DNA of 17,609 bases, from positions 1 through 17,609 of the IMG/VR virus record IMGVR_UViG_2675903413_000002, one strand, 5' to 3'. This DNA is from a virus. Taxonomy: Duplodnaviria; Heunggongvirae; Uroviricota; Caudoviricetes. This document shows, piece after piece, positions 3,132 through 17,609 of the stretch. How positions within the stretch are numbered: the stretch's first letter is position 1; the number at the start of each line of letters is the position of its first letter. The notes below the pieces were generated by a model, which was given only the letters and a program-made list of their open reading frames with translations, was not told the DNA's origin and did not search any database. Position numbers and translations under genes: made by a program.

Positions 3132-3132
3132 A

Positions 3133-3765: not shown

Positions 3766-3777
3766 TTTTTAATCCTG

Positions 3778-3806: not shown

Positions 3807-3825
3807 CTCGATGTATCAAATATTG
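3783..3825. promoter_or_regulatory. Two 13-bp direct repeats GTATCAAATATTG (3783-3795 and 3813-3825), candidate repressor operators
   Basis: Exact 13-bp repeat with 30-bp (three helical turns) centre-to-centre spacing in the cI/apl divergent region; one copy lies in the promoter spacer, the other just downstream of the -10. Confidence 0.4.
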
Positions 3826-3884
3826 AATCAAGTAAAACGAGATAAAACGACGTAAACCAAACCTTAATCGGGAGATACTGCACT

Positions 3885-4127: not shown

Positions 4128-4159
4128 GTTCAATTATGAGAACTTTCTAAGGGGGTAGC

Positions 4160-4669
4160 ATGTTTGATTATAAGATTTCCAAACACCCGCATTTTGATGA
4201 AGCCTGTAGAGCTTTTGCACTTCGTCACAATATGGCGAAGCTGGCAGAACGTTCAGGAATGAATGTCCAGACTCTGCGAAACAAACTCAACCCAGATCAA
4301 CCGCATCAGCTCAATGCGCCAGATATCTGGCTACTTACCGATCTGACGGAAGATTCAACGCTGGTAGACGGTTTTCTGGCACAGATTCACTGCCTGCCAT
4401 GTGTACCGATTAATGAGGTGGCAAAAGAGAAACTGCCACATTACGTCATGAGTGCAACCGCAGAGATCGGGCGTGTTGCTGCAGGTGCGGTATCTGGCGA
4501 TGTAAAAACCAGTGCAGGTCGTCGTGATGCTATCAGCAGCATTAACTCTGTTACACGACTGATGGCGTTAGCTGCTGTTTCATTGCAGGCCCGTTTACAG
4601 GTTAATCCTGCGATGGCAAGTGCAGTTGATACTGTAACCGGCCTCGGTGCTTCATTCGGTTTGCTGTGA
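4160..4669 (+). CDS. cII: Phage CII-like regulatory protein (186 CII family)
   Basis: 169-aa ORF (same length as 186 CII as I recall it) at the apl-cII position; GGGGG ribosome-binding site; N-terminal HTH-like region. Confidence 0.65.
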   Translation: MFDYKISKHPHFDEACRAFALRHNMAKLAERSGMNVQTLRNKLNPDQPHQLNAPDIWLLTDLTEDSTLVDGFLAQIHCLPCVPINEVAKEKLPHYVMSATAEIGRVAAGAVSGDVKTSAGRRDAISSINSVTRLMALAAVSLQARLQVNPAMASAVDTVTGLGASFGLL

Positions 4670-4676
4670 GGTGCTT

Positions 4677-4877
4677 ATGCTGACGAAAGAACCATCATTT
4701 GCATCGCTGCTGGTAAAACAAAGTCCGGCAATGTACTACGGTCACGGCTGGATCATGGGTGAGGATGGTAAACGCTGGCATCCGTGCCGTTCACAAGATG
4801 AATTGCTGGCAGAACTATCTACGAAAAAACGGGGGAACAAATGGCTATTGAAGGCGCTGCGGCGACTGTTCCATTAA
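4677..4877 (+). CDS. Hypothetical small early-region protein
   Basis: ATG at 4677 preceded by GAGGTG; 66 codons; its 3' end overlaps the next ORF by 37 nt, so one of the two assignments may be wrong. Confidence 0.3.
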   Translation: MLTKEPSFASLLVKQSPAMYYGHGWIMGEDGKRWHPCRSQDELLAELSTKKRGNKWLLKALRRLFH

Positions 4878-5182
4878 GCCCCGGTGAACGCCTGAATGGA
4901 CTTAATCACATAGCGGAATTAAGGGCGAAAGTTTTTGGCCTGAATATTGAGTCAGAGCTTGAGCGGTTTATTAAAGATATGCGTGATCCACGGGATATCA
5001 ATAACGAACAAAATAAACGAGCACTGGCAGCCATATTCTTTATGGCAAAAATTCCGGCTGAACGTCATAGCATCAGCATCAATGAGCTGACCACTGACGA
5101 AAAGCGGGAGTTGATTAAAGCAATGAATCATTTTCGTGCAGTGGTGAGCTTATTTCCCAGACGGCTAACCATGCCGAATTAA
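4841..5182 (+). CDS. Hypothetical P2-like early-region protein
   Basis: 113-aa ORF with GGGGGAAC ribosome-binding site ending 3 nt before the ATG; position between cII and the DUF2732/TraR genes matches the small early ORFs of P2-like phages. Confidence 0.45.
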   Translation: MAIEGAAATVPLSPGERLNGLNHIAELRAKVFGLNIESELERFIKDMRDPRDINNEQNKRALAAIFFMAKIPAERHSISINELTTDEKRELIKAMNHFRAVVSLFPRRLTMPN

Positions 5183-5249
5183 CCAACTAATGAAATTAAT
5201 GGCGTAAACCCGCCGGGCATCCCTTTATCTAAATTCAGGAGAATTGATT

Positions 5250-5483
5250 ATGCGTAATATTGAAATCCTCACGACTAAAACCGGACCGGATGATGCAGGG
5301 CTTAATATTTTACTGACAGAGGCTCGTCTGGAAGAACGCCGGGCAAGGGCTGAAGCAATGGCAGCTCGCCTTGATAGCCTGGCGTGTCATATCTCATCCC
5401 GTCAGCTAAACCACGTGGAAGCGGCAGAACTGCTGCGTGTGACTGCTGAAGCAATCCAGAACGAAGCGCAGGAGATCCACTAA
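5250..5483 (+). CDS. DUF2732-like small protein typical of P2-like early regions
   Basis: ATG at 5250 with AGGAG ribosome-binding site (5237-5241); the ORF-track start at 5244 is TTG and is rejected; stop overlaps the next start (TAATG). Confidence 0.5.
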   Translation: MRNIEILTTKTGPDDAGLNILLTEARLEERRARAEAMAARLDSLACHISSRQLNHVEAAELLRVTAEAIQNEAQEIH

Positions 5484-5710
5484 TGGCTGATGCAATGGAT
5501 CTCGTACAGCAGCGCGTTGAAGAAGAACGCCAGCGCCATATCCGTGCTGCCCGTGCCAAAACACCGGGCGTGTCTCGCGTGCTTTGCATTGAGTGTGAAG
5601 CGCCAATTCCGCCAGCACGCCGCCGTGCCATTCCGGGTGTGCAGCTTTGCATTACCTGCCAGGAAATTGCAGAGCTGAAAGGCAAACATTACAACGGAGG
5701 TGCTGTATGA
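5483..5710 (+). CDS. TraR/DksA-family C4 zinc-finger protein
   Basis: 75-aa ORF with CIECEAP...CITCQE (CxxC-N17-CxxC); typical of the TraR-like ORF upstream of gene A in P2-like phages; overlaps the downstream gene as ATGA. Confidence 0.7.
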   Translation: MADAMDLVQQRVEEERQRHIRAARAKTPGVSRVLCIECEAPIPPARRRAIPGVQLCITCQEIAELKGKHYNGGAV

Positions 5711-6564
5711 GCACCATCCTGAAATGGGCGGGAAATAAAACCGCCATTATGTCCGAACTGAAAAAACACCTTCCTGCTGGCCCGCGACTGGTTGAACCTT
5801 TCGCGGGTTCCTGTGCTGTGATGATGGAGACGGATTACCCCAGCTATCTTGTTGCGGATATTAATCCTGATTTAATCAACCTCTATAAAAAGGTTGCTGC
5901 TGATTGTGAGGCATTTATATCTCGTGCCAGAGCTTTATTTGAGGAAGCAAACAGGGAGGTGGCTTATTACAACATAAGGCAGAAGTTTAATTACTCCACT
6001 GAAATTACTGATTTCATGAAAGCGGTATATTTTCTGTATCTCAATCGTCATGGTTACCGTGGGTTATGTCGCTATAACAAGAGCGGGTATTTCAACATTC
6101 CCTACGGTAATTATAAAAATCCGTATTTCCCTGAAAAAGAAATTCGCGCATTTGCAGAGAAAGCCCAGCGGGCAACGTTTATCTGCGCCAGCTTTGATGA
6201 AACGCTGGCGATGTTGAAGGCGGGGGATGTGGTGTATTGCGATCCGCCGTATGACGGCACGTTTTCCGGTTATCACACTGACGGCTTCACTGAAGATGAC
6301 CAGTATCACCTGGCATCCGTTCTTGAACATCGGTCATCAGAAGGACATCCGGTCATTGTTTCTAACAGTGACACATCCCTGATCCGTTCGCTGTATCGCA
6401 ATTTTACTCACCACTACATCAAGGCAAAACGCAGCATCGGCGTAGCAGCTGGTGAGAGTAAATCTGCAACAGAAATCATCGCTGTTTCTGGGGCGCGCTG
6501 CTGGGTGGGATTTGATCCTTCGCGTGGCGTGGATAGTTCTGCCGTGTACGGAGTGCGTGCATGA
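5707..6564 (+). CDS. dam: DNA N6-adenine methyltransferase (Dam/D12-class)
   Basis: 285-aa ORF from ATG 5707 (the ORF-track start at 5647 is an upstream in-frame extension); SAM-binding FAGSCAV motif and catalytic DPPY motif ([10 protein letters not shown], nt about 6229-6258); ribosome-binding site ACGGAGGTG; stop overlaps gene A start (ATGA). Confidence 0.85.
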
Positions 6565-8975
6565 GCCATGCTGATATGAACAACTGCAGCGGCTTTAACG
6601 AGGCCGCCGCAGCATTCTCATGGAACAGCCCGAAAAAGGCTATTAACCCTTATCTGGACCCGGCGGAAGTTGCGCCGGTTTCTGCGCTTTCAAACCTGAT
6701 CACTCTGTACGCTGCCGATAACGAGCAGGAACAACTGCGCCGTGAGGCACTGAGTGATCAGGTCTGGGAGCGTTATTTCTTTAATGAATCCCGTGATCCT
6801 GTCCAGCGCGAAATGGAGCAGGATAAGCTCATTAGCCGGGCAAAGCTGGCGCATGAGCAGCAGCGTTTTAATCCAGACATGGTCATTCTGGCGGACGTCA
6901 ACGCCCAGCCTTCCCATATCAGCAAGCCGCTGATGCAACGTATTGAATACTTCAGCAGCCTGGGCAGGCCAAAGGCTTATTCCCGCTATTTGCGTGAGAC
7001 GATTAAGCCATGTCTGGAACGACTGGAGCATGTACGCGAGAGTCAGCTATCCACTTCTTTTCGCTTTATGGCAAGCCATGAAGGGCTGGACGGCCTGCTG
7101 ATCCTGCCTGAAATGAGTCAGGATCAGGTGAAACGCCTGTCCACCCTTGTTGCTGCGCATATGAGCATGTGTCTTGATGCAGCTTGTGGCGATTTGTATG
7201 CCACCGATGACGTTAAGCCAGAAGAAATCCGCAAAACATGGGAAAAGGTGGCAGCGGAAACCCTGCGTCTGGATGTTATTCCGCCTGCGTTTGAGCAACT
7301 CCGTCGGAAAAGAAACCGCCGTAAACCCGTGCCCTATGAACTCATTCCGGGTTCGCTGGCGCGTATGTTGTGTGCCGACTGGTGGTATCGGAAATTATGG
7401 AAGATGCGTTGCGAATGGCGGGAAGAGCAGTTGCGTGCTGTCTGCCTGGTCAGCAAAAAAGCATCCCCCTATGTCAGCTATGAAGCCGTGATGCATAAAC
7501 GTGAGCAGCGCCGTAAGTCGCTGGAGTTTTTTCGTTCTCATGAACTGGTGAACGAAGACGGCGACACGCTGGATATGGAAGATGTGGTAAACGCCAGCAG
7601 CAGCAACCCTGCGCATCGCCGCAATGAGATGATGGCCTGTGTTAAAGGTCTGGAGCTTATCGCGGAAATGCGCGGTGACTGCGCCGTTTTCTACACCATC
7701 ACCTGTCCGTCACGTTTCCATTCCACGCTAAATAACGGCAGGCCCAACCCAACCTGGACAAATGCGACGGTAAGACAAAGCAGTGATTATCTGGTCGGCA
7801 TGTTTGCTGCATTTCGTAAGGCGATGCACAAAGCCGGATTGCGGTGGTATGGCGTGCGGGTGGCTGAGCCGCATCATGACGGTACAGTTCACTGGCACCT
7901 GTTGTGTTTTATGCGCAAAAAAGACCGCCGCGCCATCACTGCATTACTGCGTAAGTTTGCCATCCGTGAAGACCGCGAGGAGCTGGGCAATAACACAGGG
8001 CCGCGCTTTAAGTCTGAGTTGATTAACCCGCGCAAAGGAACGCCGACAAGCTACATCGCGAAATACATTAGTAAGAACATTGACGGGCGTGGTCTGGCTG
8101 GCGAGATCAGCAAGGAAACGGGTAAATCCCTGCGTGATAACGCTGAATACGTTAATGCCTGGGCGTCTCTGCATCGTGTTCAGCAATTCCGCTTCTTTGG
8201 CATTCCGGGGCGTCAGGCTTACCGTGAACTGCGATTGCTGGCTGGTCAGGCGGCAAGGCAACAGGGGGACAAAAAAGCAGGTGCGCCGGTACTGGATAAC
8301 CCGCGCCTTGATGCAATCCTGGCTGCTGCTGATGCTGGTTGTTTTGCCACCTACATCATGAAGCAGGGCGGCGTACTGGTTCCCCGCAAATATCACCTGA
8401 TCAGAACCGCTTATGAAATCAACGAAGAGCCGACCGCCTATGGCGATCACGGCATTCGTATTTATGGCATCTGGTCACCCATTGCAGAGGGCAAGATCTG
8501 CACTCATGCAGTGAAGTGGAAAATAGTTCGTAAGGCCGTTGACGTTCAGGAGGCGGCAGCCGACCAGGGCGCTTGCGCCCCTTGGACTCGTGGCAATAAC
8601 TGTCCCCTTGCTGAAAATTTGAACCAACAAGGGAAAGACAAATCAGCTGATGGGGACTCCAGAACGGATATTACCTGTATGAATGACAAGGAGTTGCACG
8701 ATTACCTGCACAGTATGAGCAAAAAAGAGCGCCGGGAACTGGCTGCAAGGTTACGCCAGGTGAAACCGAAACGGCGTAAAGACTACAAACAGCGAATTAC
8801 AGACCATCAGCGACTGCAGCTCGTGTATGAGCTGAAGTCCAGAGGATTTGATGGCAGCGAGAAAGAGGTCGATTTACTCCTTCGCGGAGGCAGTATTCCG
8901 TCAGGAGCAGGCCTGCGTATCTTCTATCGGAACCAGCGTTTGCAGGAAGATGATCAGTGGCGGAACCTGTATTAA
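6561..8975 (+). CDS. A: Replication initiation endonuclease, P2 gpA-like rolling-circle initiator
   Basis: 804-aa ORF; HUH-type motif VHWHLL and paired active-site tyrosines in SYIAKYISK (Tyr codons at 8052-8054 and 8064-8066); located after the TraR-like and dam genes as in P2-like phages. Confidence 0.9.
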
Positions 8976-9069
8976 TTACGCGGGTTAACAATTCGTGCTC
9001 TTAATAATACCAGGCATATCAGGCTGATGAACGTAAAAAAACGTTTTACATCAGTAAGATTATTATATA

Positions 9070-9085
9070 CTGTAAATATAAACAG
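9070..9085. promoter_or_regulatory. LexA (SOS) box CTGT-N8-ACAG
   Basis: TACTGTAAATATAAACAGTG (9068-9087) closely matches the LexA consensus TACTGTATATATATACAGTA; lies about 45 bp upstream of the small ORF/DinI-like pair and overlaps a TATACT -10-like hexamer. Confidence 0.6.
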
Positions 9086-9128
9086 TGATTATACATACAG
9101 TATTGCGTGTGGTGTCATAGGAGGAAAG

Positions 9129-9317
9129 ATGCAGGACTATTTTTTGGAGTCTTTGAAGCTCCAGCGCATTGATTTTTTTCTTAAGCTTGTAGCGGCTAGT
9201 GAGTGTAGTGATGAAGATAAGGGGCTGGCTCTGCAGTGGGTTTCTGAATTGACTGATGAACTCATGGCAAAAATCAGAACCCACGAATACAACCGCTCAA
9301 TGGATGTCATCAGCTGA
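9129..9317 (+). CDS. Small SOS-controlled protein, possible Tum-like antirepressor module
   Basis: 62-aa ORF from ATG 9129 with strong ribosome-binding site AGGAGGAAAG; the ORF-track start at 9027 is rejected; directly downstream of the LexA box and upstream of the DinI-like gene. Confidence 0.4.
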   Translation: MQDYFLESLKLQRIDFFLKLVAASECSDEDKGLALQWVSELTDELMAKIRTHEYNRSMDVIS

Positions 9318-9327
9318 GGTGACTTTT

Positions 9328-9561
9328 ATGCGCATTGAAATAATGATCGATAAAGAGCAGAAGATTAGCCAGTCTACCCTGGACGCCCTTGAATCCGAGC
9401 TTTACCGCAATCTGCGCTCCCTGTATCCCAAAACGGTAATTCGTATCCGCAAAGGTAGCTCTAACGGTGTGGAACTGACCGGACTGCAACAGGACGAAGA
9501 AAGAAAACAAGTGATGAAAATTATGCAGAAGGTGTGGGAAGACGACAGCTGGCTGCATTAA
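9328..9561 (+). CDS. DinI-family protein
   Basis: 77-aa ORF MRIEIMIDKEQ...VWEDDSWL, with the MRIE start and acidic WxxDxW-type C-terminus typical of DinI; ribosome-binding site GAGGTGA; ATG 9328 is in frame within ORF-track entry 9256..9561. Confidence 0.75.
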   Translation: MRIEIMIDKEQKISQSTLDALESELYRNLRSLYPKTVIRIRKGSSNGVELTGLQQDEERKQVMKIMQKVWEDDSWLH

Positions 9562-9696
9562 GAAACGTTGCTGGCGTCTGAACTTGCTTCTGGCGTCAGC
9601 AAGGTTGAACAACGAGCCCTTGCGAGGCGTTAGCTCTGTAGTGCATGTCTATGCCGCATGAGATCGCATGATCGTTTGAGGATCGTTTTTGCTAAG

Positions 9697-9722
9697 GCCC
9701 GCCAGAACTGGCGGGCTTTTGC
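9697..9722 (+). terminator. Rho-independent terminator
   Basis: GCCCGCC-agaactg-GCGGGC stem-loop followed by TTTTG; ends the LexA-controlled operon. Confidence 0.7.
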
Positions 9723-9765
9723 GTAGATCATGCAGGTGCATGAAAACCACTACATAAAGCGGGCA

Positions 9766-9784
9766 GGCGTGGCGGGGATACGAG
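9766..9784. other. cos-like sequence (candidate cohesive-end site)
   Basis: GGCGTGGCGGGGATACGAG: the first 13 nt match the 19-nt cohesive end of phage 186 as I recall it (GGCGTGGCGGGGAAAGCAT). From memory, not verified. Confidence 0.4.
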
Positions 9785-9811
9785 CGCGCGCTTAGCCATG
9801 AATCTGTGGAC

Positions 9812-9857
9812 TTGATGGTGAAGCTAAGGTAATTTGTATCAAAAAAAGCAGTACAAT
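9812..9857 (+). promoter_or_regulatory. Candidate promoter elements for the two-gene cassette
   Basis: TTGATG (9812-9817) with a weak TGTATC 17 bp downstream; alternatively a good -10 TACAAT at 9852-9857 with a poor -35. Neither is convincing alone. Confidence 0.2.
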
Positions 9858-9870
9858 AGGGATATATAGA

Positions 9871-10950
9871 GTGGCGTTATCAGATGCGTTAATTACAGTA
9901 AATCAAGCAGAACGGGGCGGTGAAAACGCGTTGAGAGGCTTTTCATATCAAGCCTCTTGGGGGATAAATTATTTACTTGAGAAACAAAAAGAAAAGGAGA
10001 AATATTTATTTCTATTTGAATATCATGACGATATTCTTGTATTGAATTCATCTGTTTCTCCGACTAGTGCTGAGTTTATCCAAGTTAAAACAAAAAAAGA
10101 TGGTAAATGGACACTCGCAGCAATAGTGAACGCAACAAAAGCTAAACCTAAATCATTTGTTGCAAAACTATATGACCATTTCTATCAATTCGTTGGTCAC
10201 GAAATTTATATGGTTCTGTTATCGAATGCTGGATTCGATTTCTTAAATGATAATAACGAAAAAGGTAGTGATCTTAATAATGAGCATAAGGAAATTATAA
10301 TTAGTAAGGTTCAAGAGCAGCTAAATACTAAAAAAGAAGTTCCTCTTGATAAAATAAAATTTAAAACATCTGATCTTAGTTTGTTAGATCCTAACTCACA
10401 TTTATACGGGAAAGTTGCAGTTTTTTTGAATTCTTACTTTGGGGATGATCATGGTATTAATTCAACAGCATTCACTAAATTATTAATCAATAAGTGTAAT
10501 GAGAAGGTTAGTGTTGCTTCTAGTGATATCAAAACTTTTGAAGATTTAGTACTAAAGAAAGGTATATCTTCAGAATTTGTAACTGATTTATTATCTGGAC
10601 TCATTGCAAGCATAAAAATAACGCCAAAATGGGAACAGGTTTGTATGTTGCTTGGTACTTTCTCAGATCCTTATGAGGGGATTAAATTACAATCAGTTTT
10701 TACACGCATATCAATAAAAGTGCTCAATGTCAATTCAATATACTATCTTTATTTTCTGGAATTTCAATCGGCTCTAAAGAGTATAGAGCATTATCGTGAG
10801 ATACCTGTTCGAGACCTCTTCTTTACACTCGAAAAAACAATTGCAGCGGGGGACGGGGATTTCTCTTTATTAAATCAAGAAGAGAAATTTATGATTGCTA
10901 TATATGCAATTATAAAGTTGACTTTTGAGGATGTTTCTTATGAAGAATAA
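9871..10950 (+). CDS. Putative defence effector: DUF4297/Cap4-like PD-(D/E)xK nuclease N-terminal domain with a C-terminal domain of unknown function (LmuA-like)
   Basis: 359-aa ORF with GTG start and TAGGGA Shine-Dalgarno-like sequence; N-terminal RGFSYQASWGINYLL motif followed by EYHDDILVL...EFIQVKTKK (Asp53/Asp54, Glu68, Gln71-x-Lys73) resembling a PD-(D/E)xK core; strongly AT-rich; sits between the cos-like site and the portal remnant. Confidence 0.65.
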   Translation: MALSDALITVNQAERGGENALRGFSYQASWGINYLLEKQKEKEKYLFLFEYHDDILVLNSSVSPTSAEFIQVKTKKDGKWTLAAIVNATKAKPKSFVAKLYDHFYQFVGHEIYMVLLSNAGFDFLNDNNEKGSDLNNEHKEIIISKVQEQLNTKKEVPLDKIKFKTSDLSLLDPNSHLYGKVAVFLNSYFGDDHGINSTAFTKLLINKCNEKVSVASSDIKTFEDLVLKKGISSEFVTDLLSGLIASIKITPKWEQVCMLLGTFSDPYEGIKLQSVFTRISIKVLNVNSIYYLYFLEFQSALKSIEHYREIPVRDLFFTLEKTIAAGDGDFSLLNQEEKFMIAIYAIIKLTFEDVSYEE

Positions 10951-12598
10951 CGTTAAATTTAAAAATATAAAAATACTCTCATTAAGAGACAGAAAAGCTT
11001 TTTCTTATGAGTTTTCAGAAGGGGTTAACTTCATATATGGTACAAATGATGTTGGTAAATCAAGCCTGATTAAAAGTCTTTATTACACATTAGGTGGAGA
11101 TTTAAGGCTTGATGATGCTTGGAAATCAGATGATATAGTTACACTGGTGGAAATTAATAACGGGGAAAGTGATTTTATTTTTTTGCGTTATAAAAAGATT
11201 ATTGGTGTCTTTGATTTGAAGAATGATGATCTAGTCGTGTATAACACGATTTCGTCATTAGCATCTCGTGTTTCAAATATATTTGGTTTTAAACTGGAAT
11301 TACATAATAAATATACGGGTGCTACGACTCAGGCAAACCCTGCTTGTTTGTTTGCCCCATTCTTTATTGATCAGGATGAAGGATGGAAAGCGGTGATAAA
11401 TTCTTTCGAAAACATGAGTATGTACTCAGAATGGCAAAAAAACATTCTTTACTATCACTCTGGAATTAAGCCAAAGGAATATTACACAGTTCAAGGGAAA
11501 ATCAAAGAAGTTAAAGTTAAAATTTCAGAGTTAGATGGTTTTGTTAAGGTTCTAAAAAGAAGCAAAAGTAAGATTGATGAATCTTTTGGTGTGGTTTTAT
11601 TTGATGTTGATTTGGATTTTTATAAATCAAAGTTAGAACGTATATTAAATGAATATTCTAATTTGAATTTAGTTCAGACAGAATATAGATTGAATCTTTT
11701 GAGGTTATATTCTAGGAAGAATTTCCTTGAGAGTGAACTCAAAGAGATAACTGCGATTATTGATAATGAATTTGAGATTTCGAATTTTCGAGATGATAAT
11801 GTTGCTTATTCAGTAAATGAATATAATTATATAAACCATAGAGATGAAATGCTCAAAAACATTGCTGTTCTTGCAGATGAGAAAAGCAAGATTGAGGAAA
11901 ATATTCCTAAATTGAATCAAAAGCTAGAAGAGTCAAGGGCTGCTTCAGAGGCGTTGCAGGCGCTGATTTTAGAAACTCAATCGGAAATAACGCTTCATGA
12001 TGTTATTAAATCTGCTGCATACCATGAAATTGAATCTACTTTTGTTTCACAGTTAGATGAGTTATTCGTTGAGATTGGTCGAAAAGAAGGCGAGTTGACA
12101 GAATTACAAGAAGAATTAGAAGTATACAATGATAAGAAAAGAACTGTTAAAATAAATGACTGTTTCAAAGAGTATTTCGCTAAAGCTCTTAAAGAGCTTG
12201 GTGTCGAAAATACAAAGGTAGGTGGCCTTAGTAGTTATAATAATATTACTAAGGGTAAGACTGGTAGTCGAGGTCCTCGAGGTATATTTGCATTTCACTA
12301 CGCGCTACTTAGTGTTATGAAAAGCAACTCTTCAGTTGAGAATATGCCTATAGTAATAGACTCTCCAAAGCAACAAGATTTGGATCCAGAGCATACGCAT
12401 AAGCTTATAAAACTATGCTTGGATGGGTTTTCCCTTACAAATCAGATTATTATTGGCACTGTTGGTTATGAGAGTTTCATGGATGGTTTTAATAGCATCA
12501 AACTTGAAAATAAATATCATCTTTTAAATGATGAACATTATGATAATGTTTATTCTCAATTAATGCCATTGTTTGAACGGGTGATACTTTCAAGATGA
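10940..12598 (+). CDS. SMC/Rad50-like coiled-coil ATPase (LmuB-like)
   Basis: About 552 aa from ATG 10940 (ribosome-binding site GAGGAT 7 nt upstream; overlaps the upstream stop by 11 nt). Walker A GTNDVGKSS (nt 11039-11065); long Glu/Lys/Leu-rich coiled-coil middle; C-terminal Walker B-like MPIVIDSPKQQD (nt about 12344-12379). Confidence 0.75.
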   Translation: MKNNVKFKNIKILSLRDRKAFSYEFSEGVNFIYGTNDVGKSSLIKSLYYTLGGDLRLDDAWKSDDIVTLVEINNGESDFIFLRYKKIIGVFDLKNDDLVVYNTISSLASRVSNIFGFKLELHNKYTGATTQANPACLFAPFFIDQDEGWKAVINSFENMSMYSEWQKNILYYHSGIKPKEYYTVQGKIKEVKVKISELDGFVKVLKRSKSKIDESFGVVLFDVDLDFYKSKLERILNEYSNLNLVQTEYRLNLLRLYSRKNFLESELKEITAIIDNEFEISNFRDDNVAYSVNEYNYINHRDEMLKNIAVLADEKSKIEENIPKLNQKLEESRAASEALQALILETQSEITLHDVIKSAAYHEIESTFVSQLDELFVEIGRKEGELTELQEELEVYNDKKRTVKINDCFKEYFAKALKELGVENTKVGGLSSYNNITKGKTGSRGPRGIFAFHYALLSVMKSNSSVENMPIVIDSPKQQDLDPEHTHKLIKLCLDGFSLTNQIIIGTVGYESFMDGFNSIKLENKYHLLNDEHYDNVYSQLMPLFERVILSR

Positions 12599-12604
12599 AA
12601 ATAT

Positions 12605-12622
12605 GGCCTCAGAAATGAGGCC
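12605..12622. terminator. Stem-loop GGCCTCA-gaaa-TGAGGCC between the convergent cassette and portal remnant
   Basis: Perfect 7-bp stem; on the minus strand it is followed by AUAUUUUC, so it could terminate the leftward portal transcript; it may also insulate the cassette 3' end. Confidence 0.5.
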
Positions 12623-12638
12623 GACTAAATTATCTTAA

Positions 12639-13148
12639 TTAAATTTTTAGTTCGTAGGTTGAAAAATTTATAATTCTATCGTTTAACCAATTATTTATTT
12701 CTAGAAACATTTTTTGTAGAGGCAGTAGCTCATTTCGTACAAATACTGTGCTTGCCTTTTCGATATCCCCAAACCCCCCGACATTATTAGGCATTATCCC
12801 CATCATTTGTGGCGGCACACGATGCGCCGCCATCATGTCGTCCCGGCTCACGTTCTTGATATTCAGGAACTCATCCTTCGCCGCCACTTCTGACAACGGG
12901 ATAATCTGAAGCCCGTCCTTTTTACCGTTAGGCGAGTACATAAACAGGTTACGGAAGTTACCAGGACCTTTGGCGCTTTTCATCGCATTGCGGAGGTTGT
13001 TCACATCCTCCTGGTTCTGCGCAGCATCGGTCATGTACATGATGAAGCCTGCATGACTGCCGTTAATGTAATACTTGCGGCGGAACAGCGTGGCGGACTC
13101 GTTGAGCAGAGCTGACGGAATGGCAGAAAGATAGGTGCTCTGCTCAGT
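12639..13148 (-). pseudogene. Q: Portal protein (gpQ-like) C-terminal fragment; 5' part of the gene deleted
   Basis: Only about the last 170 codons of the minus-strand ORF look portal-like (…HRVPPQMMGIMPNNVGGFGDIEKAS…). The ORF-track upstream extension to 13565 is the antisense strand of the tape-measure fragment and is rejected. Confidence 0.5.
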
Positions 13149-13160
13149 CCGATAGGTCTT

Positions 13161-14051
13161 GTGGTTACTGCACTGGCGGGCGTGGCGCTGGTTGTCTGGA
13201 AATACTGGCAACCCATCACCGCATTTCTCGCTGGTGTGGTGGAAGGATTCAAAGCGGCGGCAGGTCCCATCAGTGCAGCATTCGAACCACTTAAGCCTGT
13301 GTTTCAGTGGATTGGCGACAAAGTGCAGGCGTTGTGGGGCTGGTTTACTGATCTGCTGACGCCCGTTAAGTCGACCTCTGCCGAACTGCAGAGCGCAGCG
13401 GCAATGGGGCGACGATTCGGGGAGGCACTGGCGGAAGGGCTGAATATGGTCATGCATCCGCTGGACTCCCTGAAATCCAGCGTTTCCTGGTTGCTGGAAA
13501 AACTCGGCATTGTCAGTAAAGAGGCTGCAAAGGCGAAACTGCCGGAAAGAGTGACGCGTCAGCAACCTGCGACGGTGAATGCAGACGGTAAAGTGATGAT
13601 GCCATCGGGTGGTTTTCCGTCATGGGGATATGGCTTTGCGGGGATGTATGACAGCGGCGGCTATATCCCGCGCGGGCAGTTTGGCATCGTCGGTGAAAAC
13701 GGGCCGGAAATTGTTAACGGCCCGGCAAATGTGACCAGCCGGAGAAATACAGCTGCACTGGCTGCCGTTGTTGCCGGAATGATGGGCGTTGCTGCCGCGC
13801 CTGCAGAGCTTCCACCGTTGCATCCTTTGGCACTTCCCGCGAAAGGCGGCGAAGCGATGGTGAGTCGTGCAGCCACTGTGCCGCCCGTTCACCGGATTGA
13901 GGCACCGACGCAGATCATCATTCAGACGCAGCCAGGACAAAGTGCGCAGGATATTGCGCGGGAGGTGGCACGCCAGCTTGATGAACGTGAACGCAGGCTG
14001 AAGGCAAAAGCCAGGAGTAACTACAGCGATCAGGGGGGATACGACGCATGA
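13161..14051 (+). pseudogene. T: Tail tape-measure protein (gpT-like) C-terminal fragment
   Basis: 296-aa ORF rich in Ala/Gly with a …GIVGENGPEIVNGPANVT… segment typical of tape-measure C-termini; far shorter than the about 800 aa expected; directly followed by U and D as in P2; abuts the portal fragment with no intervening structural genes. Confidence 0.55.
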
Positions 14052-14533
14052 TGATGGTGCTGGGATTGTACGTGTTTATGCTGAGCACCGTTCCGTATCA
14101 GGAACTGCAGTATCAACGCAGCTGGCGACATGCGGCAAACAGCCGGGTAAACCGTCGTCCGTCCACGCAGTTTCTGGGACCGGACAACGACATGCTGACG
14201 CTTTCTGGTGTTCTTATGCCGGAGATAACGGGCGGCAGGCTGTCGTTGCTGGCTCTGGAGCAGATGGCAGAACAGGGAAAAGCATGGCCCCTGATTGAAG
14301 GCAGCGGCACGATTTACGGCATGTATGTGATTGAGGGACTGAATCAGACTAAAACGGAGTTTTTCCGCGATGGTATGCCGCGCCGGATTGAGTTTACCCT
14401 GTCGCTCAAACGTGTGGATGAATCCCTGTCCGATATGTTCGGTGATCTCAGTGCGCAGCTGAATAATTTGCAGGATACGGCAACGTCTGCCTTAAGCGAT
14501 ATCAGTAAAACGGTGGGAGGGCTGCTGTCGTGA
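14048..14533 (+). CDS. U: Tail protein gpU-like
   Basis: 161-aa ORF, start overlapping the T stop (ATGA); position and size match P2 gpU between T and D. Confidence 0.7.
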   Translation: MMMVLGLYVFMLSTVPYQELQYQRSWRHAANSRVNRRPSTQFLGPDNDMLTLSGVLMPEITGGRLSLLALEQMAEQGKAWPLIEGSGTIYGMYVIEGLNQTKTEFFRDGMPRRIEFTLSLKRVDESLSDMFGDLSAQLNNLQDTATSALSDISKTVGGLLS

Positions 14534-15630
14534 ATTTCAGCTCTGAACTGCTTAACAAAGGCAACAAAACTCCCGCATTCAGCATCAGTATTGAGGGGAA
14601 GGATATCACCACTGTGCTGGATAACCGCCTGATGAGTCTGACGTTGACGGACAATCGGGGCTTTGAAGCAGACCAGCTTGATCTGGAGCTGGACGACGCC
14701 GACGGAAAAATCGTGCTGCCGCGCCGTGGTGCGGTCATCACGCTGGCGCTGGGCTGGAAGGGGCAGCCGCTTTTCCCGAAAGGGGCATTCACGGTGGACG
14801 AGATTGAACACACTGGCGCACCGGATCGCCTGACTATCCGGGCGCGAAGTGCTGATTTTAGGGAAACGCTGAATACCCGCCGTGAAAAATCGTGGCACAA
14901 GACCACCGTCGGGGAAGTGGTGAAGGAAATAGCCGCGCGGCACAAGCTGAAGATGGCACTGGGTAAAGACCTGTCGGATAAGCCCGTGGAACATATAGAC
15001 CAGACCAATGAGAGTGACGGCAGTTTTCTGATGCGGCTGGCGCGCCAGTACGGTGCTATTGCGTCGGTGAAAAATGGCAATCTGTTATTCATCCGGCAGG
15101 GACAGGGCAAAAGCGCCAGCGGTAAACCTCTGCCGGTGATCACTATCACACGCAAGGACGGCGACAGTCACCGCTTTACCCTGGCAGATCGCGGAGCCTA
15201 TACGGGGGTAATTGCCAGTTGGTTGCATACCCGCGAACCCGTGAAGAAAGAAAGCACCACGGTGAAGCGTAAGCGCAGGACCGCAAAGCAGAAGAAAGAG
15301 CCGGAAGCGAAGCAGGGCGATTACCTGGTGGGTACGGATGAAAACGTGCTGGTACTTAATCGCACTTATGCCAACCGGAACAACGCTGAACGGGCAGCGA
15401 AAATGCAGTGGGAACGCCTGCAACGCGGCGTTGCGTCATTCTCGCTACAACTGGCGGAAGGTCGGGCAGATCTCTACACGGAAATGCCAGTGAAAGTCAG
15501 TGGCTTTAAACAGCCGATAGATGATGCGGAATGGACCATTACGACTCTGACACATACCGTCAGCCCGGATAACGGTTTTACAACCAGTATTGAACTCGAA
15601 GTGAAGATTGATGATCTTGAAATGGAATAA
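14530..15630 (+). CDS. D: Tail protein gpD-like
   Basis: 366-aa ORF with GTG start overlapping the U stop (GTGA); located immediately upstream of ogr as in P2. Confidence 0.7.
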   Translation: MNFSSELLNKGNKTPAFSISIEGKDITTVLDNRLMSLTLTDNRGFEADQLDLELDDADGKIVLPRRGAVITLALGWKGQPLFPKGAFTVDEIEHTGAPDRLTIRARSADFRETLNTRREKSWHKTTVGEVVKEIAARHKLKMALGKDLSDKPVEHIDQTNESDGSFLMRLARQYGAIASVKNGNLLFIRQGQGKSASGKPLPVITITRKDGDSHRFTLADRGAYTGVIASWLHTREPVKKESTTVKRKRRTAKQKKEPEAKQGDYLVGTDENVLVLNRTYANRNNAERAAKMQWERLQRGVASFSLQLAEGRADLYTEMPVKVSGFKQPIDDAEWTITTLTHTVSPDNGFTTSIELEVKIDDLEME

Positions 15631-15698
15631 TGTGTTCTCAATATTGATATTTTGTGTATCATTACAATGATTCTGATAGCAAAGGTAGGGATCTGGAT

Positions 15699-15917
15699 AT
15701 GATGAATTGTCCGAAGTGTGGTCATGCGGCGCACACAAGGAGCAGTTTTCAAGTAACAGAAAGCACCAAAGAGCGTTACTGCCAGTGCCAAAATATTAAC
15801 TGCGGGAGCACTTTTGTTACCCATGAAACAGTGGTCCGGTTTATTGTGACACCTGCATTGATTGCTACAGCCCCTCCACATCCATTGCCAGGTGGTCAGG
15901 GGCATATGAATTTTTGA
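15699..15917 (+). CDS. ogr: Ogr/Delta-family zinc-finger late-gene transcription activator
   Basis: 72-aa ORF MMNCPKCGHAAHTRSS...KERYCQCQNINCGSTF...PHPLPGGQ, matching the P2 Ogr zinc-finger pattern (CxxC...CxC...C) and length; ribosome-binding site GGTAGGG 8 nt upstream; the ORF-track start at 15654 is rejected. Confidence 0.85.
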   Translation: MMNCPKCGHAAHTRSSFQVTESTKERYCQCQNINCGSTFVTHETVVRFIVTPALIATAPPHPLPGGQGHMNF

Positions 15918-15923
15918 GAAAGA

Positions 15924-15943
15924 GAACCTGCTACGGCAGGTTT
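15924..15943. terminator. Hairpin AACCTGC-tacg-GCAGGTT followed by TTTTTATT (ogr terminator; overlaps candidate attR core)
   Basis: 7-bp stem with 4-nt loop and T-tract on the plus strand, 7 nt after the ogr stop; the stop of the convergent minus-strand gene (15944-15946) lies inside the T-tract. Confidence 0.55.
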
Positions 15944-16426
15944 TTATTCATCTGGGATCTCACCCGTTTCAAGAAAATGTATAAAGCCAGGCTCATCTAT
16001 GATGATTGTGCCTTTCATCCTGGCTGCCGATACTTTTGATGGGCCTGCATTGTAACCGCAACAGAGCATCTGAAGGCTTTGGGTTACAGAGGTTCTTACC
16101 GTTAATCCTTGTTCATTCGCCTTATCAACCAATCTTTCTTTATCTGCTTTCTTAAATCCGGTGAAGCACACATCGAATGTATTTTTTTTCGGACCAGACT
16201 GCTTAGTGAGATGTGAGTAGTTTTCGGGGAGGAATGACGCGCATTCCTGAATGGCTTGTTCTGGTGAATCGTACTGTTTAAGAATGCGGTCTTTTCGGAA
16301 GGTTTTTATTCGATCGGTGTTCTTACAAATGCCCTGTATATGATTTTCGCTATAACTGATGCTCTGTATTGAGTGAACACCGATACGACCATTTGCATTG
16401 ATGTAAACAAAGTGAAGTTCTTCCAT
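15944..16426 (-). CDS. WYL-like N-terminal domain / BRCT C-terminal domain protein
   Basis: 160-aa ORF with ribosome-binding site AAGAGG. C-terminal FDVCFTGFKKADKERLVDKANEQGLTV...NAGPSKVSAARMKGTIIIDEPGF resembles the BRCT domain of NAD-dependent DNA ligase; N-terminal …RIKTFRKDRIL… resembles the WYL motif. Confidence 0.6.
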   Translation of the reverse strand: MEELHFVYINANGRIGVHSIQSISYSENHIQGICKNTDRIKTFRKDRILKQYDSPEQAIQECASFLPENYSHLTKQSGPKKNTFDVCFTGFKKADKERLVDKANEQGLTVRTSVTQSLQMLCCGYNAGPSKVSAARMKGTIIIDEPGFIHFLETGEIPDE

Positions 16427-16510
16427 GTGAAACCTCTTTGCATGATTTCAAGATGGCGACAGGCAAGATGGACGCAAAAGTCTGTCGCCATTTTGCCGCC
16501 ACTACCAAAG

Positions 16511-16539
16511 AAAAAGGGGCTACGCTTTCACGTAACCCC
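16511..16539 (-). terminator. Rho-independent terminator of ssrA
   Basis: On the minus strand: GGGGUUACG-UGAAAG-CGUAGCCCC (9-bp stem with one G-U pair) followed by UUUUUC, just 3' of the tmRNA CCA end. Confidence 0.7.
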
Positions 16540-16549
16540 TTGATTTATT

Positions 16550-16912
16550 TGGTGGAGCTGGCGGGAGTTGAACCCGCGTCCGAAATTCCTACATCCTCGG
16601 TACTACATGCTTAGTCAGTCTTTACATTCGCTTGCCAGCTGCGGACGGACACGCCACTAACAAACTAGCCTGATTAAGTTTTAACGCTTCAACCCCAGGC
16701 AGGGCTTCCACGCGATCTCTTTTGGGTTTGACCTCTCTTGATCCCCGTCCTAAGAGCGGAGGCTAGGGAGAGAGGGCTCTAAGCAGGTTATTAAGCTGCT
16801 AAAGCGTAGTTTTCGTCGTTTGCGACTATTTTTTGCGGCTTTTTACGAGGCCAACCGCCCCTCGGCATGCACCTTGGGTTTCGCAAATCCCGTCGAATCC
16901 AGAATCAGCCCC
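16550..16912 (-). ncRNA. ssrA: tmRNA (transfer-messenger RNA, SsrA)
   Basis: Minus strand begins GGGGCTGATTCTGGATTCGACGGG and ends …GGTTCAACTCCCGCCAGCTCCACCA; contains the tag reading frame GCAAACGACGAAAACTACGCTTTAGCAGCTTAA (ANDENYALAA); 363 nt, enterobacterial-type. Confidence 0.95.
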
Positions 16913-16926
16913 AATGTGTAAAGGTA

Positions 16927-16932
16927 AGTATA
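16927..16932 (-). promoter_or_regulatory. ssrA promoter -10 hexamer (TATACT on minus strand)
   Basis: TATACT lies about 15 nt upstream of the mature tmRNA 5' end on the minus strand, consistent with a precursor processed by RNase P; the -35 was not confidently identified. Confidence 0.45.
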
Positions 16933-17126
16933 CCAGATTTATGAGCGCCATGACCAGCCTCAATGGCGTTATCGTTAAAGATTTAGCACCCATGTAGCCT
17001 GATTTTTATTCGATTAAGCAATGGGATGGCAACATTTGTGTCGGATGTGATAGCCAATAAGATGTTCATTCGCGCCGCCGGAGAGGGAGGCGCGGTGAGG
17101 AACTGGTCAATAATTGGAGTGCAGGT

Positions 17127-17609
17127 TTAACGGTGGGCGTTTTTCATGATACGTGCTTTATCCACCTGCCATTCGCGCTCTTTGATATCTGAACGTTTAT
17201 CGTGCTGTTTCTTACCTTTGGCGACGCCGATTTTCACTTTGCACCAGGCATTTTTCCAGTACAGGGAGAGCGCCACTACGGTATAGCCTTCTCGATTGAC
17301 GCGACCGTACAATGAGTCCAGTTCGCGCTGGTTGAGAAGTAACTTGCGGGTACGGGTAGGATCGCACACCACATGCGTGGAGGCCACGGCCATTGGCGTG
17401 ATGTTAGCGCCAAACAGAAATGCCTCTCCGTCACGCAGAAGGACGTAGCTGTCGCTGATATTGGCTTTTCCTGCGCGCAGGGATTTAACTTCCCAGCCTT
17501 GCAGGGCAAGTCCCGCTTCGAACTCTTCTTCGATAAAGTATTCGTGACGGGCGCGCTTGTTAAGCGCGATGGTCGCTGAACCAGGTTTATGTGCTTTTTT
17601 CTTCGTCAT
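17127..17609 (-). CDS. smpB: SsrA-binding protein SmpB
   Basis: 160-aa [31 protein letters not shown]… essentially identical to enterobacterial SmpB; directly upstream of ssrA on the same strand; start codon at the window edge. Confidence 0.95.

What the first reader, a model, noticed from the sequence alone, without database searches (positions are those of the whole stretch)
9871..12598. AT-rich two-gene cassette in the prophage defence hotspot: DUF4297/PD-(D/E)xK-like protein plus SMC-like ATPase (Lamassu-like candidate)
Between the cos-like site and the portal remnant (the P2 locus where tin/old-type accessory genes sit) there is a compositionally foreign, strongly AT-rich two-gene operon. 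Gene 1 (359 aa) has an N-terminal GFSYQ...HDD...EFIQVK arrangement resembling the DUF4297/Cap4-type PD-(D/E)xK nuclease fold; residues from about 150 onward carry no motif I can recognise and could be a sensor or regulatory domain. Gene 2 (about 552 aa) has Walker A GTNDVGKSS, a roughly 250-aa coiled-coil, and a C-terminal Walker B-like IVIDSPKQ, i.e. an SMC/Rad50-like ATPase. The two are translationally coupled (ATG 10940 lies inside the last codons of gene 1). Nuclease-effector-then-SMC-ATPase is the organisation of type I Lamassu (LmuA/LmuB), but I cannot tell whether this is a canonical Lamassu or a divergent, uncharacterised relative.
Basis: partly seen in the sequence, partly recalled or inferred. 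Interest (0 to 1): 0.85.

Follow-up and report, generated by a model that had tools for sequence, protein, structure and literature searches.

The report
Type I Lamassu defence cassette, prophage-borne

Summary
Two co-oriented ORFs, 9871-10950 (359 aa) and 10940-12598 (552 aa), overlap by 11 nt and have 32% GC against 49-56% in the flanking phage genes. Both match PADLOC Lamassu models over their full lengths (LmuA 4e-143, LmuB 5.9e-253). The best structural match for both predicted folds is the solved type I LmuAB complex of Bacillus cellulasensis (9ux7). There is no room for an lmuC gene, so this is type I (clade S). LmuB has a Walker A (K40), a Q-loop, a signature-like motif and the deviant Walker B (IVIDS) typical of short Lamassu, but no CxxC zinc hook. 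LmuA keeps the invariant HDD...QVK (K73) nuclease motif. The cassette lies between a cos-like site and the portal gene, where sister prophages carry a retron or a DUF262 gene instead. It also occurs in Klebsiella and Salmonella P2-like prophages and in a Cronobacter lambdoid prophage. It is under strong purifying selection (dN/dS about 0.1). The prophage in this window has lost about 18.8 kb of morphogenesis genes but keeps the cassette. By homology, an LmuA1:LmuB2 complex senses DNA ends, then released LmuA tetramerises and degrades DNA, aborting the infection. Novelty is low.

The parts
9766..9784 (+). cos-like site (context anchor, not part of the system): GGCGTGGCGGGGATACGAG
   Evidence: It matches the annotated 19-nt cos of phage 186 at 15 of 19 positions, with the first 13 identical. 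In 186 and P2 only about 170-190 bp separate cos from the portal stop codon. Here the gap is about 2.85 kb because of the cassette.
9806..9870 (+). Cassette-specific upstream region with an inferred own promoter (-35 TGGACT 9807-9812, 17-nt spacer, -10 TAATTT 9830-9835; alternative -10 TACAAT 9852-9857) and a Shine-Dalgarno AGGGA at 9858-9862, 8 nt before the GTG
   Evidence: Homology to prophages carrying other cargo stops at about 9805 (matches end at query position 204-206). The TGGACT...GTAATTT...TAGGGATATA blocks are conserved even in the Cronobacter lambdoid-prophage copy. The upstream early operon ends at a hairpin plus T-run at 9691-9722 (I4). The consensus promoter scan did not call this site, so the promoter is inferred only.
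9871..10950 (+). lmuA, 359 aa: N-terminal Cap4/DUF4297 PD-(D/E)xK-type dsDNA nuclease (residues 15-212, nt 9913-10506; H52-D53-D54 and Q71-V72-K73 invariant) plus a helical LmuA C-terminal domain (residues about 213-359, nt 10507-10947)
   Evidence: PADLOC LmuA PDLC00243 at 4e-143 over residues 1-356. Pfam Cap4_nuclease at 1.4e-33. Invariant columns in the homolog alignment. AF2 model with pLDDT 86. Foldseek top hit 9ux7_C, the LmuA of the type I LmuAB-DNA complex, over 352 aligned columns, followed by HamA, VcLmuA, Cap4 and SeLmuA. dN/dS 0.12.
10940..12598 (+). lmuB, 552 aa: Rad50/SMC-like ABC ATPase. N-terminal head half with Walker A G34-x4-G39-K40-S41 and Q-loop D144-Q145; antiparallel coiled coil at residues about 179-419 with the apex at about 279-288 and no CxxC; C-terminal head half with a signature-like T441-G442-S443 and a deviant Walker B I471-V-I-D474-S475
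   Evidence: PADLOC LmuB PDLC00255 at 5.9e-253 over residues 3-550. Profile hit to PDB 9ux7_A 'Lamassu protein LmuB' at 8.7e-45 over the full length. AF2 model with pLDDT 84.6. Foldseek top hit 9ux7_A at 3e-24, then the type II LmuBs, then Rad50/SbcC/SMC. Motifs and the absence of CxxC. dN/dS 0.08.
12605..12622 (.). GC-rich hairpin GGCCTCAGAAATGAGGCC between the lmuB stop (12598) and the convergent portal stop (12639); a likely terminator
   Evidence: The scan calls it terminator-like on the minus strand. The hairpin is conserved in the Salmonella copy. The Cronobacter copy has an equivalent hairpin followed by a T-run on the plus strand right after lmuB.
12639..13132 (-). Portal (gpQ/W-like) gene remnant; deletion junction at 13132/13133 (context)
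   Evidence: blastn against the intact sister prophage: window 1-13133 aligns to L001 and window 13132-17609 aligns to L003 19269-23746. L003 512-19268 (about 18.76 kb, from the rest of the portal gene to inside the tape-measure gene) is missing.

Best explanation
The cassette is a complete type I (two-gene, LmuC-less, clade S) short Lamassu anti-phage system with a Cap4-nuclease effector. It is carried as exchangeable cargo in the gpA-gpQ defence hotspot of a 186/P2-like prophage integrated at ssrA. The proposed mechanism is inferred by homology to the solved Bacillus cellulasensis LmuAB and to the Vibrio and Salmonella LmuACB systems. Two LmuB protomers pair along their short coiled coils. 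One LmuA monomer is held inactive through its C-terminal domain at the head-distal part of the LmuB arms. The LmuB head, together with the LmuA N-terminal domain, binds free dsDNA ends or replication intermediates made by an infecting phage, with ATP binding and slow hydrolysis (K40; deviant Walker B D474-S475) tuning the response. LmuA is then released and tetramerises through its C-terminal domain, which juxtaposes Cap4 nuclease domains (D53/D54, Q71-x-K73). These degrade DNA non-specifically, and the infected cell dies before phage progeny are made (abortive infection). Shown here: family membership, motif integrity, gene architecture, mobility, purifying selection and hotspot context. Inferred: expression, complex stoichiometry, the trigger, nuclease activation and the phage spectrum.
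For: Both proteins give full-length, very strong PADLOC LmuA and LmuB hits, and LmuA matches Pfam Cap4_nuclease. The LmuB family profile hits the solved type I LmuB 9ux7_A over its full length at 8.7e-45, but hits the type II LmuBs (9ny5, 9uxl, 9hqu) only weakly at the N-terminus. Confident AF2 models have the type I LmuAB complex chains as their best PDB matches. Walker A, the Q-loop, the signature-like motif and the short-Lamassu Walker B hhhhD[QSTE] are invariant in 30 homologs (motif definition in PMC12663957). The LmuA HDD...QVK motif is invariant. It aligns with the equivalent HamA motif and corresponds to the catalytic lysines BcLmuA K59, VcLmuA K57 and SeLmuA K68. No plus-strand ORF of 30 aa or more lies between or after the two genes, and only 40 nt separate the lmuB stop from the portal stop. 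The same Cap4-nuclease-then-LmuB pair without LmuC recurs in Vibrio cholerae (43% identity) and Elizabethkingia (26% identity). The slot is a true variable hotspot: 1277 of 5426 complete E. coli genomes match the flank, only 11 carry this cassette, and others carry a retron Ec78-type system or a DUF262 gene there. The cassette is in intact prophages at two different chromosomal sites, in Klebsiella P2-like prophages at 99.4% identity, in the Salmonella P2-like hotspot and in a Cronobacter lambdoid prophage. dN/dS is 0.07-0.12. The mechanism is taken from 10.1101/2025.06.23.660979, PMC12663957 and 10.1101/2025.03.14.643221.
Against: There is no experimental evidence for this cassette, and no paper in the searchable library mentions its protein accessions. 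LmuA is only about 15% identical to BcLmuA, and sequence profiles alone did not retrieve any solved LmuA. LmuB lacks the CxxC zinc hook that BcLmuB has and that Salmonella LmuACB needs for protection, so apex dimerisation and LmuA docking may differ in detail. However, the functional Vibrio LmuB is also hook-less. No consensus promoter was called upstream. The AT-rich DNA might be silenced by H-NS; this lead rests only on an abstract, because the paper could not be read. The host prophage is defective, so selection acting on this particular copy cannot be shown.
Confidence: 0.88

Rival explanations
1. The system's main selected role is competition between mobile elements, such as eliminating plasmids or excluding other temperate phages or satellites for the benefit of the carrier prophage, rather than defending against lytic phages. 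The molecular mechanism would be the same.
For: The best-studied Lamassu, V. cholerae DdmABC, and its relatives have anti-plasmid activity and are triggered by palindromic or hairpin DNA. The cassette always travels on temperate phages in the copies examined: P2-like phages in four genera and one lambdoid phage.
Against: Type I BcLmuAB protects E. coli against the lytic phage T1. The V. cholerae copy of this subclade lies in the chromosome with no phage genes within 4 kb on either side. The two roles are not mutually exclusive and cannot be separated by sequence.
Confidence: 0.2
2. In this window the cassette is silent or decaying cargo of a dead prophage and has no current function.
For: The prophage has lost about 18.8 kb of morphogenesis and lysis genes. 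No consensus sigma-70 promoter was detected upstream. The DNA has very low GC, and such DNA is often silenced by H-NS (abstract only).
Against: Both ORFs are intact and 99.8% identical in DNA to the copy in an intact prophage. All catalytic motifs are preserved. The family is under strong purifying selection. The cassette-specific upstream block is conserved across unrelated phage backbones. The deletion stops about 500 bp short of the cassette, which fits retention of useful cargo during prophage domestication.
Confidence: 0.07
3. It is a different nuclease-plus-ABC-ATPase system (type II Lamassu with a missed LmuC, Hachiman, a CBASS Cap4 effector module, Gabija, PARIS or an OLD-like system) rather than type I Lamassu.
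For: There are weak secondary hits. The LmuA N-terminus matches HamA models (1e-8 to 5e-11) and the Cap4 and HamA structures. The LmuB Walker A region matches GajA, AbiL and RecF/Rad50.
Against: These hits are confined to the shared nuclease core or the P-loop and are more than 100 orders of magnitude weaker than the full-length Lamassu hits. There is no helicase (HamB), CD-NTase, SAVED domain, TOPRIM domain or LmuC-sized ORF anywhere in or next to the cassette.
Confidence: 0.02

Closest known systems
Type I Lamassu LmuAB of Bacillus cellulasensis NIO-1130 (Doron et al. 2018 system; cryo-EM 9ux7/9ux8; 10.1101/2025.06.23.660979)
   Same: It has the same two-gene lmuA-lmuB operon without lmuC, a Cap4/DUF4297 nuclease with a helical C-terminal domain in LmuA (about 360 aa) and a short LmuB (about 550-560 aa) with a deviant Walker B. 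It is the best PDB match for both proteins by fold, and for LmuB also by sequence profile over the full length.
   Different: Sequence identity is only about 15% for LmuA and about 20% for LmuB. The window's LmuB has no CxxC zinc hook and a shorter apex, whereas BcLmuB has 285-CQYC-288. The window's cassette is prophage-borne in Enterobacteriaceae.
Type II Lamassu LmuACB: Vibrio cholerae DdmABC (9nxx, 9ny5, 9uxh) and Salmonella enterica LmuACB (9hqu, 9hqx)
   Same: It shares a Cap4-nuclease LmuA with a tetramerising C-terminal domain, a short SMC/Rad50-like LmuB and the Walker A K40 position. VcLmuB is likewise hook-less. The presumed logic is the same: sequestration, DNA-end sensing, release and tetramerisation.
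   Different: Type II systems have a third subunit, LmuC, that bridges LmuA and LmuB and contacts DNA, and their LmuB is about 100 aa longer (DUF3732 family). They are related to the window's proteins only at the N-terminal head by sequence and give lower fold scores.
Cargo of the P2 gpA-gpQ (cos-proximal) defence hotspot: P2 old and tin, and retron, PARIS and other systems (Rousset et al. 2022, cited from background knowledge; PMC13586616)
   Same: It occupies the same slot between the replication gene A and the portal gene, is AT-rich and exchangeable, and is replaced by a retron Ec78-type or a DUF262 gene in sister prophages.
   Different: In P2, old and tin lie on the gpA side of cos and are transcribed towards A. 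Here, and in the 186-like sister prophages, the cargo lies on the portal side of cos and converges on the portal gene.
Rad50/SbcC-Mre11/SbcD DNA-end repair complexes
   Same: They share the ABC ATPase head split by an antiparallel coiled coil and the sensing of DNA ends. They have been proposed as the evolutionary source of Lamassu (PMC12663957). They are recovered as sequence and fold hits after the Lamassu hits.
   Different: Their coiled coils are much longer, they have a zinc hook, a canonical Walker B glutamate and an Mre11/SbcD phosphoesterase partner, and they have a housekeeping repair role.

Membership tests
Lamassu (family level) | LmuB: an SMC/Rad50-like ABC ATPase whose head is split by a short antiparallel coiled coil, with Walker A Gx4GK[ST] | tested here: met
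   G34-TNDV-G39-K40-S41. Helical arm at about residues 179-419 between two alpha/beta head halves. Full-length PADLOC LmuB hit at 5.9e-253. Foldseek hits to 9ux7_A, 9uxh_F and 9hqx_B, then Rad50/SMC.
Lamassu (short type) | Deviant Walker B hhhhD[Q/S/T/E] and a LmuB of about 600 aa or less (PMC12663957) | tested here: met
   P470-I-V-I-D474-S475, invariant across 30 homologs; protein length 552 aa (definition).
Lamassu (family level) | LmuA: an N-terminal effector domain fused to the conserved LmuA C-terminal (docking and oligomerisation) domain | tested here: met
   Cap4_nuclease at residues 15-212. The PADLOC LmuA model covers residues 1-356, including the C-terminal domain. The Foldseek alignment to BcLmuA 9ux7_C spans 352 columns with TM 0.51/0.59.
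Lamassu-Cap4 nuclease subtype | Intact PD-(D/E)xK-type active site with the catalytic lysine (BcLmuA K59, VcLmuA K57, SeLmuA K68) | tested here: met
   H52-D53-D54 and Q71-V72-K73 are invariant in 14 homologs and lie on adjacent beta-strands of the model. The motif aligns with HamA DDI...FVQVK. Residue-by-residue superposition on BcLmuA K59 was not done.
Lamassu type I (clade S) | Two-gene operon lmuA-lmuB, co-oriented and adjacent, with no lmuC | tested here: met
   The genes overlap by 11 nt. No other plus-strand ORF of 30 aa or more lies outside the two genes, and 40 nt separate the lmuB stop from the portal stop. The same pair without lmuC occurs in Vibrio, Elizabethkingia, Salmonella and Cronobacter. 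The LmuB profile matches type I BcLmuB over its full length but matches type II LmuB only at the N-terminus.
Lamassu type I as solved (BcLmuAB) | CxxC zinc hook at the coiled-coil apex of LmuB | tested here: not met
   LmuB has no CxxC; its only cysteines are at positions 136, 408 and 493. The whole subclade at 36% identity or more lacks it and has an apex about 15 residues shorter, whereas relatives at 29% identity or less have CP[TIMR]C at about residue 294. The hook is reported as variable (0, 1 or 2 copies) among short Lamassu systems and is absent in the functional VcLmuB, so it is not a family-defining feature.
Lamassu (family level) | LmuA1:LmuB2 complex that sequesters monomeric LmuA; DNA-end sensing; LmuA tetramerisation and nuclease activation | not testable with these tools
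   Known only for BcLmuAB, VcLmuACB and SeLmuACB. The structure tool predicts single chains only.
Lamassu (family level) | Confers phage (or plasmid) resistance by abortive infection | not testable with these tools
   No experiment on this cassette was found.
Defence-island or hotspot cargo | Located in a variable locus where alternative defence systems replace each other, with foreign composition | tested here: met
   An anti-phage dCTP deaminase also lies next to the prophage.
Hachiman / CBASS-Cap4 / Gabija (considered) | Partner genes HamB helicase, or CD-NTase plus a SAVED sensor, or GajB with a TOPRIM domain in GajA | tested here: not met
   Only weak partial hits to the shared nuclease core or P-loop. 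No such partner ORFs are present in the window.

The most novel reading that the evidence does not exclude
The enterobacterial and Vibrio subclade of type I Lamassu, which has lost both LmuC and the zinc hook, may hold its LmuB dimer together and dock LmuA in a way not seen in any solved complex. Because it sits immediately next to cos on phages that replicate by rolling circle and create cos ends at packaging, the carrier phage may also need an unrecognised way to avoid triggering its own DNA-end sensor. Candidates are timing, silencing or an anti-Lamassu factor.
Probability: 0.15. Interest if true: 0.45.

Novelty: already known. Interest (0 to 1): 0.12.

Why it matters
The value is mainly in annotation. 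RefSeq labels the two genes only as 'dsDNA nuclease domain-containing protein' and 'hypothetical protein' or 'AAA family ATPase', and they can be named LmuA and LmuB (type I Lamassu). The locus is a clear example of a defective prophage at ssrA that has shed its virion genes while keeping an intact defence cassette, next to a second defence gene (dCTP deaminase). It also shows one two-gene module moving between P2-like and lambdoid phages of several genera. It does not open a new mechanistic question beyond those already posed for Lamassu: what exactly triggers it, and how a carrier phage avoids self-activation.

Tried and rejected
1. Single-sequence phmmer of LmuA against the PDB found nothing, and a 14-sequence LmuA profile found only the HamA N-terminus. 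The relation to solved LmuA chains therefore had to be shown by fold.
2. NCBIfam has no Lamassu model. It returned only sub-threshold SMC, Rad50 and RecF hits for LmuB and noise for LmuA.
3. The search for a hidden lmuC or any other small gene on either strand found none. Minus-strand ORFs inside the cassette are 60 aa or shorter and have no support.
4. The consensus promoter scan found no more sites than shuffled sequence does, and none just upstream of lmuA. The proposed promoter therefore rests only on conservation.
5. Repeat and Rfam scans of the cassette found no structured RNA, no flanking direct or inverted repeats and no transposon ends. Only the tmRNA was found elsewhere in the window, so the mechanism of cassette exchange is not evident; it is presumably recombination in the conserved flanks.
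6. A literature search for the exact protein accessions gave no hits. The H-NS silencing preprint could not be opened. The NAR 2026 hotspot paper has no supplementary tables held as text, so the frequency of Lamassu in P2 hotspots could not be read there.
7. The alternative classifications (Hachiman, CBASS Cap4, Gabija, PARIS, type II Lamassu) were considered and rejected, as listed under the rival explanations.
Full report
**Observation**

The window holds two co-oriented ORFs at the stated coordinates. ORF1 runs 9871-10950 (GTG start, 359 aa). ORF2 runs 10940-12598 from its ATG (552 aa); the mechanical ORF call begins at TTG 10925. RefSeq annotators use the same two starts in a genome whose DNA is 99.8% identical over window 1-13133. 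The genes overlap by 11 nt, and this overlap is conserved in the Salmonella and Cronobacter copies.

The cassette is 32% GC (GC3 24-26%), against 49% for the early phage genes and 56% for the tail genes. One numbering point needs correcting: the Walker A lysine is K40 in ATG numbering, and K45 only in TTG numbering.

**What the two proteins are**

- **LmuA (ORF1), sequence evidence.** It matches Pfam Cap4_nuclease (DUF4297) at 1.4e-33 over residues 15-212. It matches the PADLOC LmuA model PDLC00243 at 4e-143 over residues 1-356 of 359.
- **LmuB (ORF2), sequence evidence.** It matches the PADLOC LmuB model PDLC00255 at 5.9e-253 over residues 3-550 of 552. It gives only sub-threshold SMC_N, AAA_23, Rad50 and RecF hits in the general libraries.
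- **LmuB, profile against the PDB.** A 30-sequence LmuB profile hits chain 9ux7_A, 'Lamassu protein LmuB', at 8.7e-45 over the full length. It touches the type II LmuBs (9ny5, 9uxl, 9hqu) only at the N-terminal head.
- **LmuA, profile against the PDB.** Sequence profiles of LmuA did not reach any solved LmuA.
- **Fold evidence.** The AF2 model of LmuA (pLDDT 86) has chain C of the same type I LmuAB-DNA complex, 9ux7_C, as its best Foldseek hit over 352 aligned columns. HamA, VcLmuA, Cap4 and SeLmuA follow. The LmuB model (pLDDT 85) has a two-part ABC head separated by helices spanning residues about 179-419. Its hits run 9ux7_A first (3e-24), then the type II LmuBs, then Rad50, SbcC and SMC.

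**Motifs**

- **LmuB.** Invariant across homologs are Walker A G34...G39-K40-S41, Q-loop D144-Q145, a signature-like G442-S443...P446-R447, and Walker B P470-x-V-I-D474-S475. The last fits the 'hhhhD[Q/S/T/E]' form described for short Lamassu systems.
- **LmuA.** H52-D53-D54 and Q71-V72-K73 are invariant. K73 corresponds to the catalytic lysines mutated in BcLmuA (K59), VcLmuA (K57) and SeLmuA (K68).
LmuA residues about 213-359 form the helical LmuA C-terminal domain. In the solved complexes this domain docks on the distal LmuB coiled coil and drives tetramerisation.

**Type I versus type II**

There is no LmuC-sized ORF. Nothing of 30 aa or more lies on the plus strand outside the two genes, and only 40 nt separate the lmuB stop from the convergent portal stop. 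The same pair without LmuC, a Cap4-nuclease protein of about 360 aa followed by a LmuB of about 550-575 aa, recurs in Vibrio cholerae (LmuB 43% identical) and in Elizabethkingia (26% identical). This is the type I architecture, clade S of Haudiquet et al., where LmuC was lost.

The one feature that differs from the solved type I complex is the zinc hook. BcLmuB has CQYC. The window's LmuB has no CxxC. The entire subclade at 36% identity or more lacks the hook and has an apex about 15 residues shorter, whereas relatives at 29% identity or less carry CPxC at about residue 294. Zinc-hook copy number is already reported as variable among short Lamassu systems, and the functional Vibrio LmuB has none. 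This is therefore a known kind of variation, not a failed membership test.

**Context**

- **The prophage.** The window is a 186/P2-like prophage integrated at ssrA. It contains integrase, CI, CII, Dam, gpA and a DinI-like gene, then the cassette, a portal remnant, and the tape-measure remnant, U, D and ogr, followed by tmRNA and smpB.
- **Position relative to cos.** A cos-like site at 9766-9784 matches the annotated 186 cos at 15 of 19 positions, with the first 13 identical. In 186 and P2, cos lies only about 170-190 bp from the portal stop. Here the cassette fills that interval. P2's own old and tin sit on the other side of cos, but the whole gpA-gpQ interval is the recognised P2 defence hotspot.
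- **Frequency.** The left flank occurs in 1277 of 5426 complete E. coli genomes. The cassette occurs in only 11.
- **Alternative cargo.** Sister prophages carry a retron Ec78-type RT-PtuA-PtuB system or a DUF262 gene in the slot.
- **Carrier prophages.** The cassette is present in intact prophages at two different chromosomal sites, in 12 Klebsiella P2-like prophage records at 99.4% identity, and in the same slot of a Salmonella P2-like prophage at 87-89% amino-acid identity. It also lies between the replication and Q-antiterminator genes of a Cronobacter lambdoid prophage at 68-72% identity.
- **What travels with it.** About 65 nt of upstream sequence and a downstream hairpin travel with the genes. 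The upstream early operon ends at its own terminator, 9691-9722. The cassette therefore probably has its own promoter: -35 TGGACT at 9807-9812 and -10 TAATTT at 9830-9835. This is inferred only, since the scan did not call it.
- **Selection.** dN/dS against the Salmonella and Cronobacter copies is 0.12 for lmuA and 0.07-0.08 for lmuB.

None of this fits a morphogenetic role.

**State of this copy**

Compared with the intact sister prophage, the window has a clean deletion of about 18.76 kb, from inside the portal gene to inside the tape-measure gene (junction at 13132/13133). The deletion ends about 500 bp from the cassette, and the cassette is untouched.

**Mechanism (by homology, not shown here)**

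For type I BcLmuAB, cryo-EM and biochemistry show the following (10.1101/2025.06.23.660979):

- The complex is LmuA1:LmuB2, with monomeric LmuA anchored by its C-terminal domain to the distal coiled coils.
- A dsDNA end binds directly to one LmuB head and to the LmuA N-terminal domain.
- Nuclease activity is stimulated by linear DNA and modulated by ATP.
- Protection against phage T1 is lost in K59A and in interface mutants.

For the type II systems, released LmuA forms a tetramer that builds the active nuclease site. I expect the window's system to work the same way, ending in non-specific DNA degradation and abortive infection.

**Comparison and novelty**

The cassette is a member of type I Lamassu. 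Every testable defining feature is met, apart from the non-defining zinc hook. Existing PADLOC subfamily models recognise it at near-maximal scores, and it is present in RefSeq genomes, although under uninformative product names. No paper in the searchable library mentions the exact proteins, so this particular member is experimentally uncharacterised. As a kind of system it is already known.

The most novel reading still open has two parts. The hook-less, LmuC-less subclade might assemble differently from any solved complex. A cos-adjacent DNA-end sensor on a cos phage might also require a self-avoidance mechanism. I rate this as unlikely to be more than a modest variant.

**Verdict**

This is an ordinary, already classifiable defence system in a textbook hotspot, and its interest is low.

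Noticed in passing
window 1-1734 (+): A second AT-rich (33% GC) defence gene lies just outside the integrase end of the prophage. It is a 577-aa anti-phage dCTP deaminase: PADLOC dCTPase at 1.7e-145, Pfam dCMP_cyt_deam_1 at residues 353-525, and the RefSeq name 'anti-phage dCTP deaminase' in the sister genome. It sits between ypjA and the prophage, so the ssrA locus holds at least two defence systems side by side.
   Followed up: partly
window 13132/13133: This is a clean internal prophage deletion of about 18.76 kb relative to the intact sister prophage in E. coli VG888-46E9. It fuses the portal gene (about half retained) to the 3' part of the tape-measure gene, and it removes the terminase, capsid, lysis, baseplate, fibre, invertase, sheath and tube genes. 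The long minus-strand 'ORF' at 12639-13565 is a chimera that reads across this junction.
   Followed up: yes
window 15944-16426 (-): A 160-aa ORF of moderate GC lies between ogr and ssrA, at the attR-proximal end of the prophage. It has no Pfam hit. Its C-terminal 70 residues weakly match the PADLOC candidate PDC-S48 (1.8e-07). RefSeq calls it a hypothetical protein. It may be another piece of accessory cargo.
   Followed up: partly
window 16550-16912 (-) and 17127-17609 (-): tmRNA (ssrA; Rfam 295.8 bits; tag peptide ANDENYALAA) and smpB. The prophage is integrated at the 3' end of ssrA.
   Followed up: yes
window 9691-9722: A strong hairpin followed by a T-run (GCTAAGGCCCGCCAG AA CTGGCGGGCTTTTGC) lies downstream of the DinI-like gene (9256-9561) and just upstream of cos. 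It probably terminates the early operon, and it insulates the Lamassu cassette from early transcription.
   Followed up: partly
L004 6393-9663 and L005 6280-8061 (same slot in other E. coli 186-like prophages): Other cargo occupies the identical cos-to-portal slot: a retron Ec78-type RT + AAA ATPase + PtuB HNH system in one prophage and a DUF262 (GmrSD-like) gene in another.
   Followed up: partly
L002 23800-25320 (-): In the E. coli 23CRST028 prophage that also carries this Lamassu cassette, a 506-aa SIR2-family gene is inserted on the opposite strand between the virion morphogenesis gene and baseplate gene V. This is a second cargo site in the tail region.
   Followed up: no
L011 3988-4665 (+): The Salmonella P2-like prophage has an extra 225-aa ORF with no Pfam hit between the DinI-like gene and lmuA. 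This ORF is absent from the E. coli copies.
   Followed up: no
alignment A2 (LmuB homologs), apex columns equivalent to window LmuB residues 268-300: Within type I LmuB, loss of the CxxC zinc hook coincides with a shortening of the apex by about 15 residues. It separates the gammaproteobacterial subclade (36% identity or more) from more distant relatives such as those in Elizabethkingia, Oligoflexia and a mine-drainage metagenome.
   Followed up: partly
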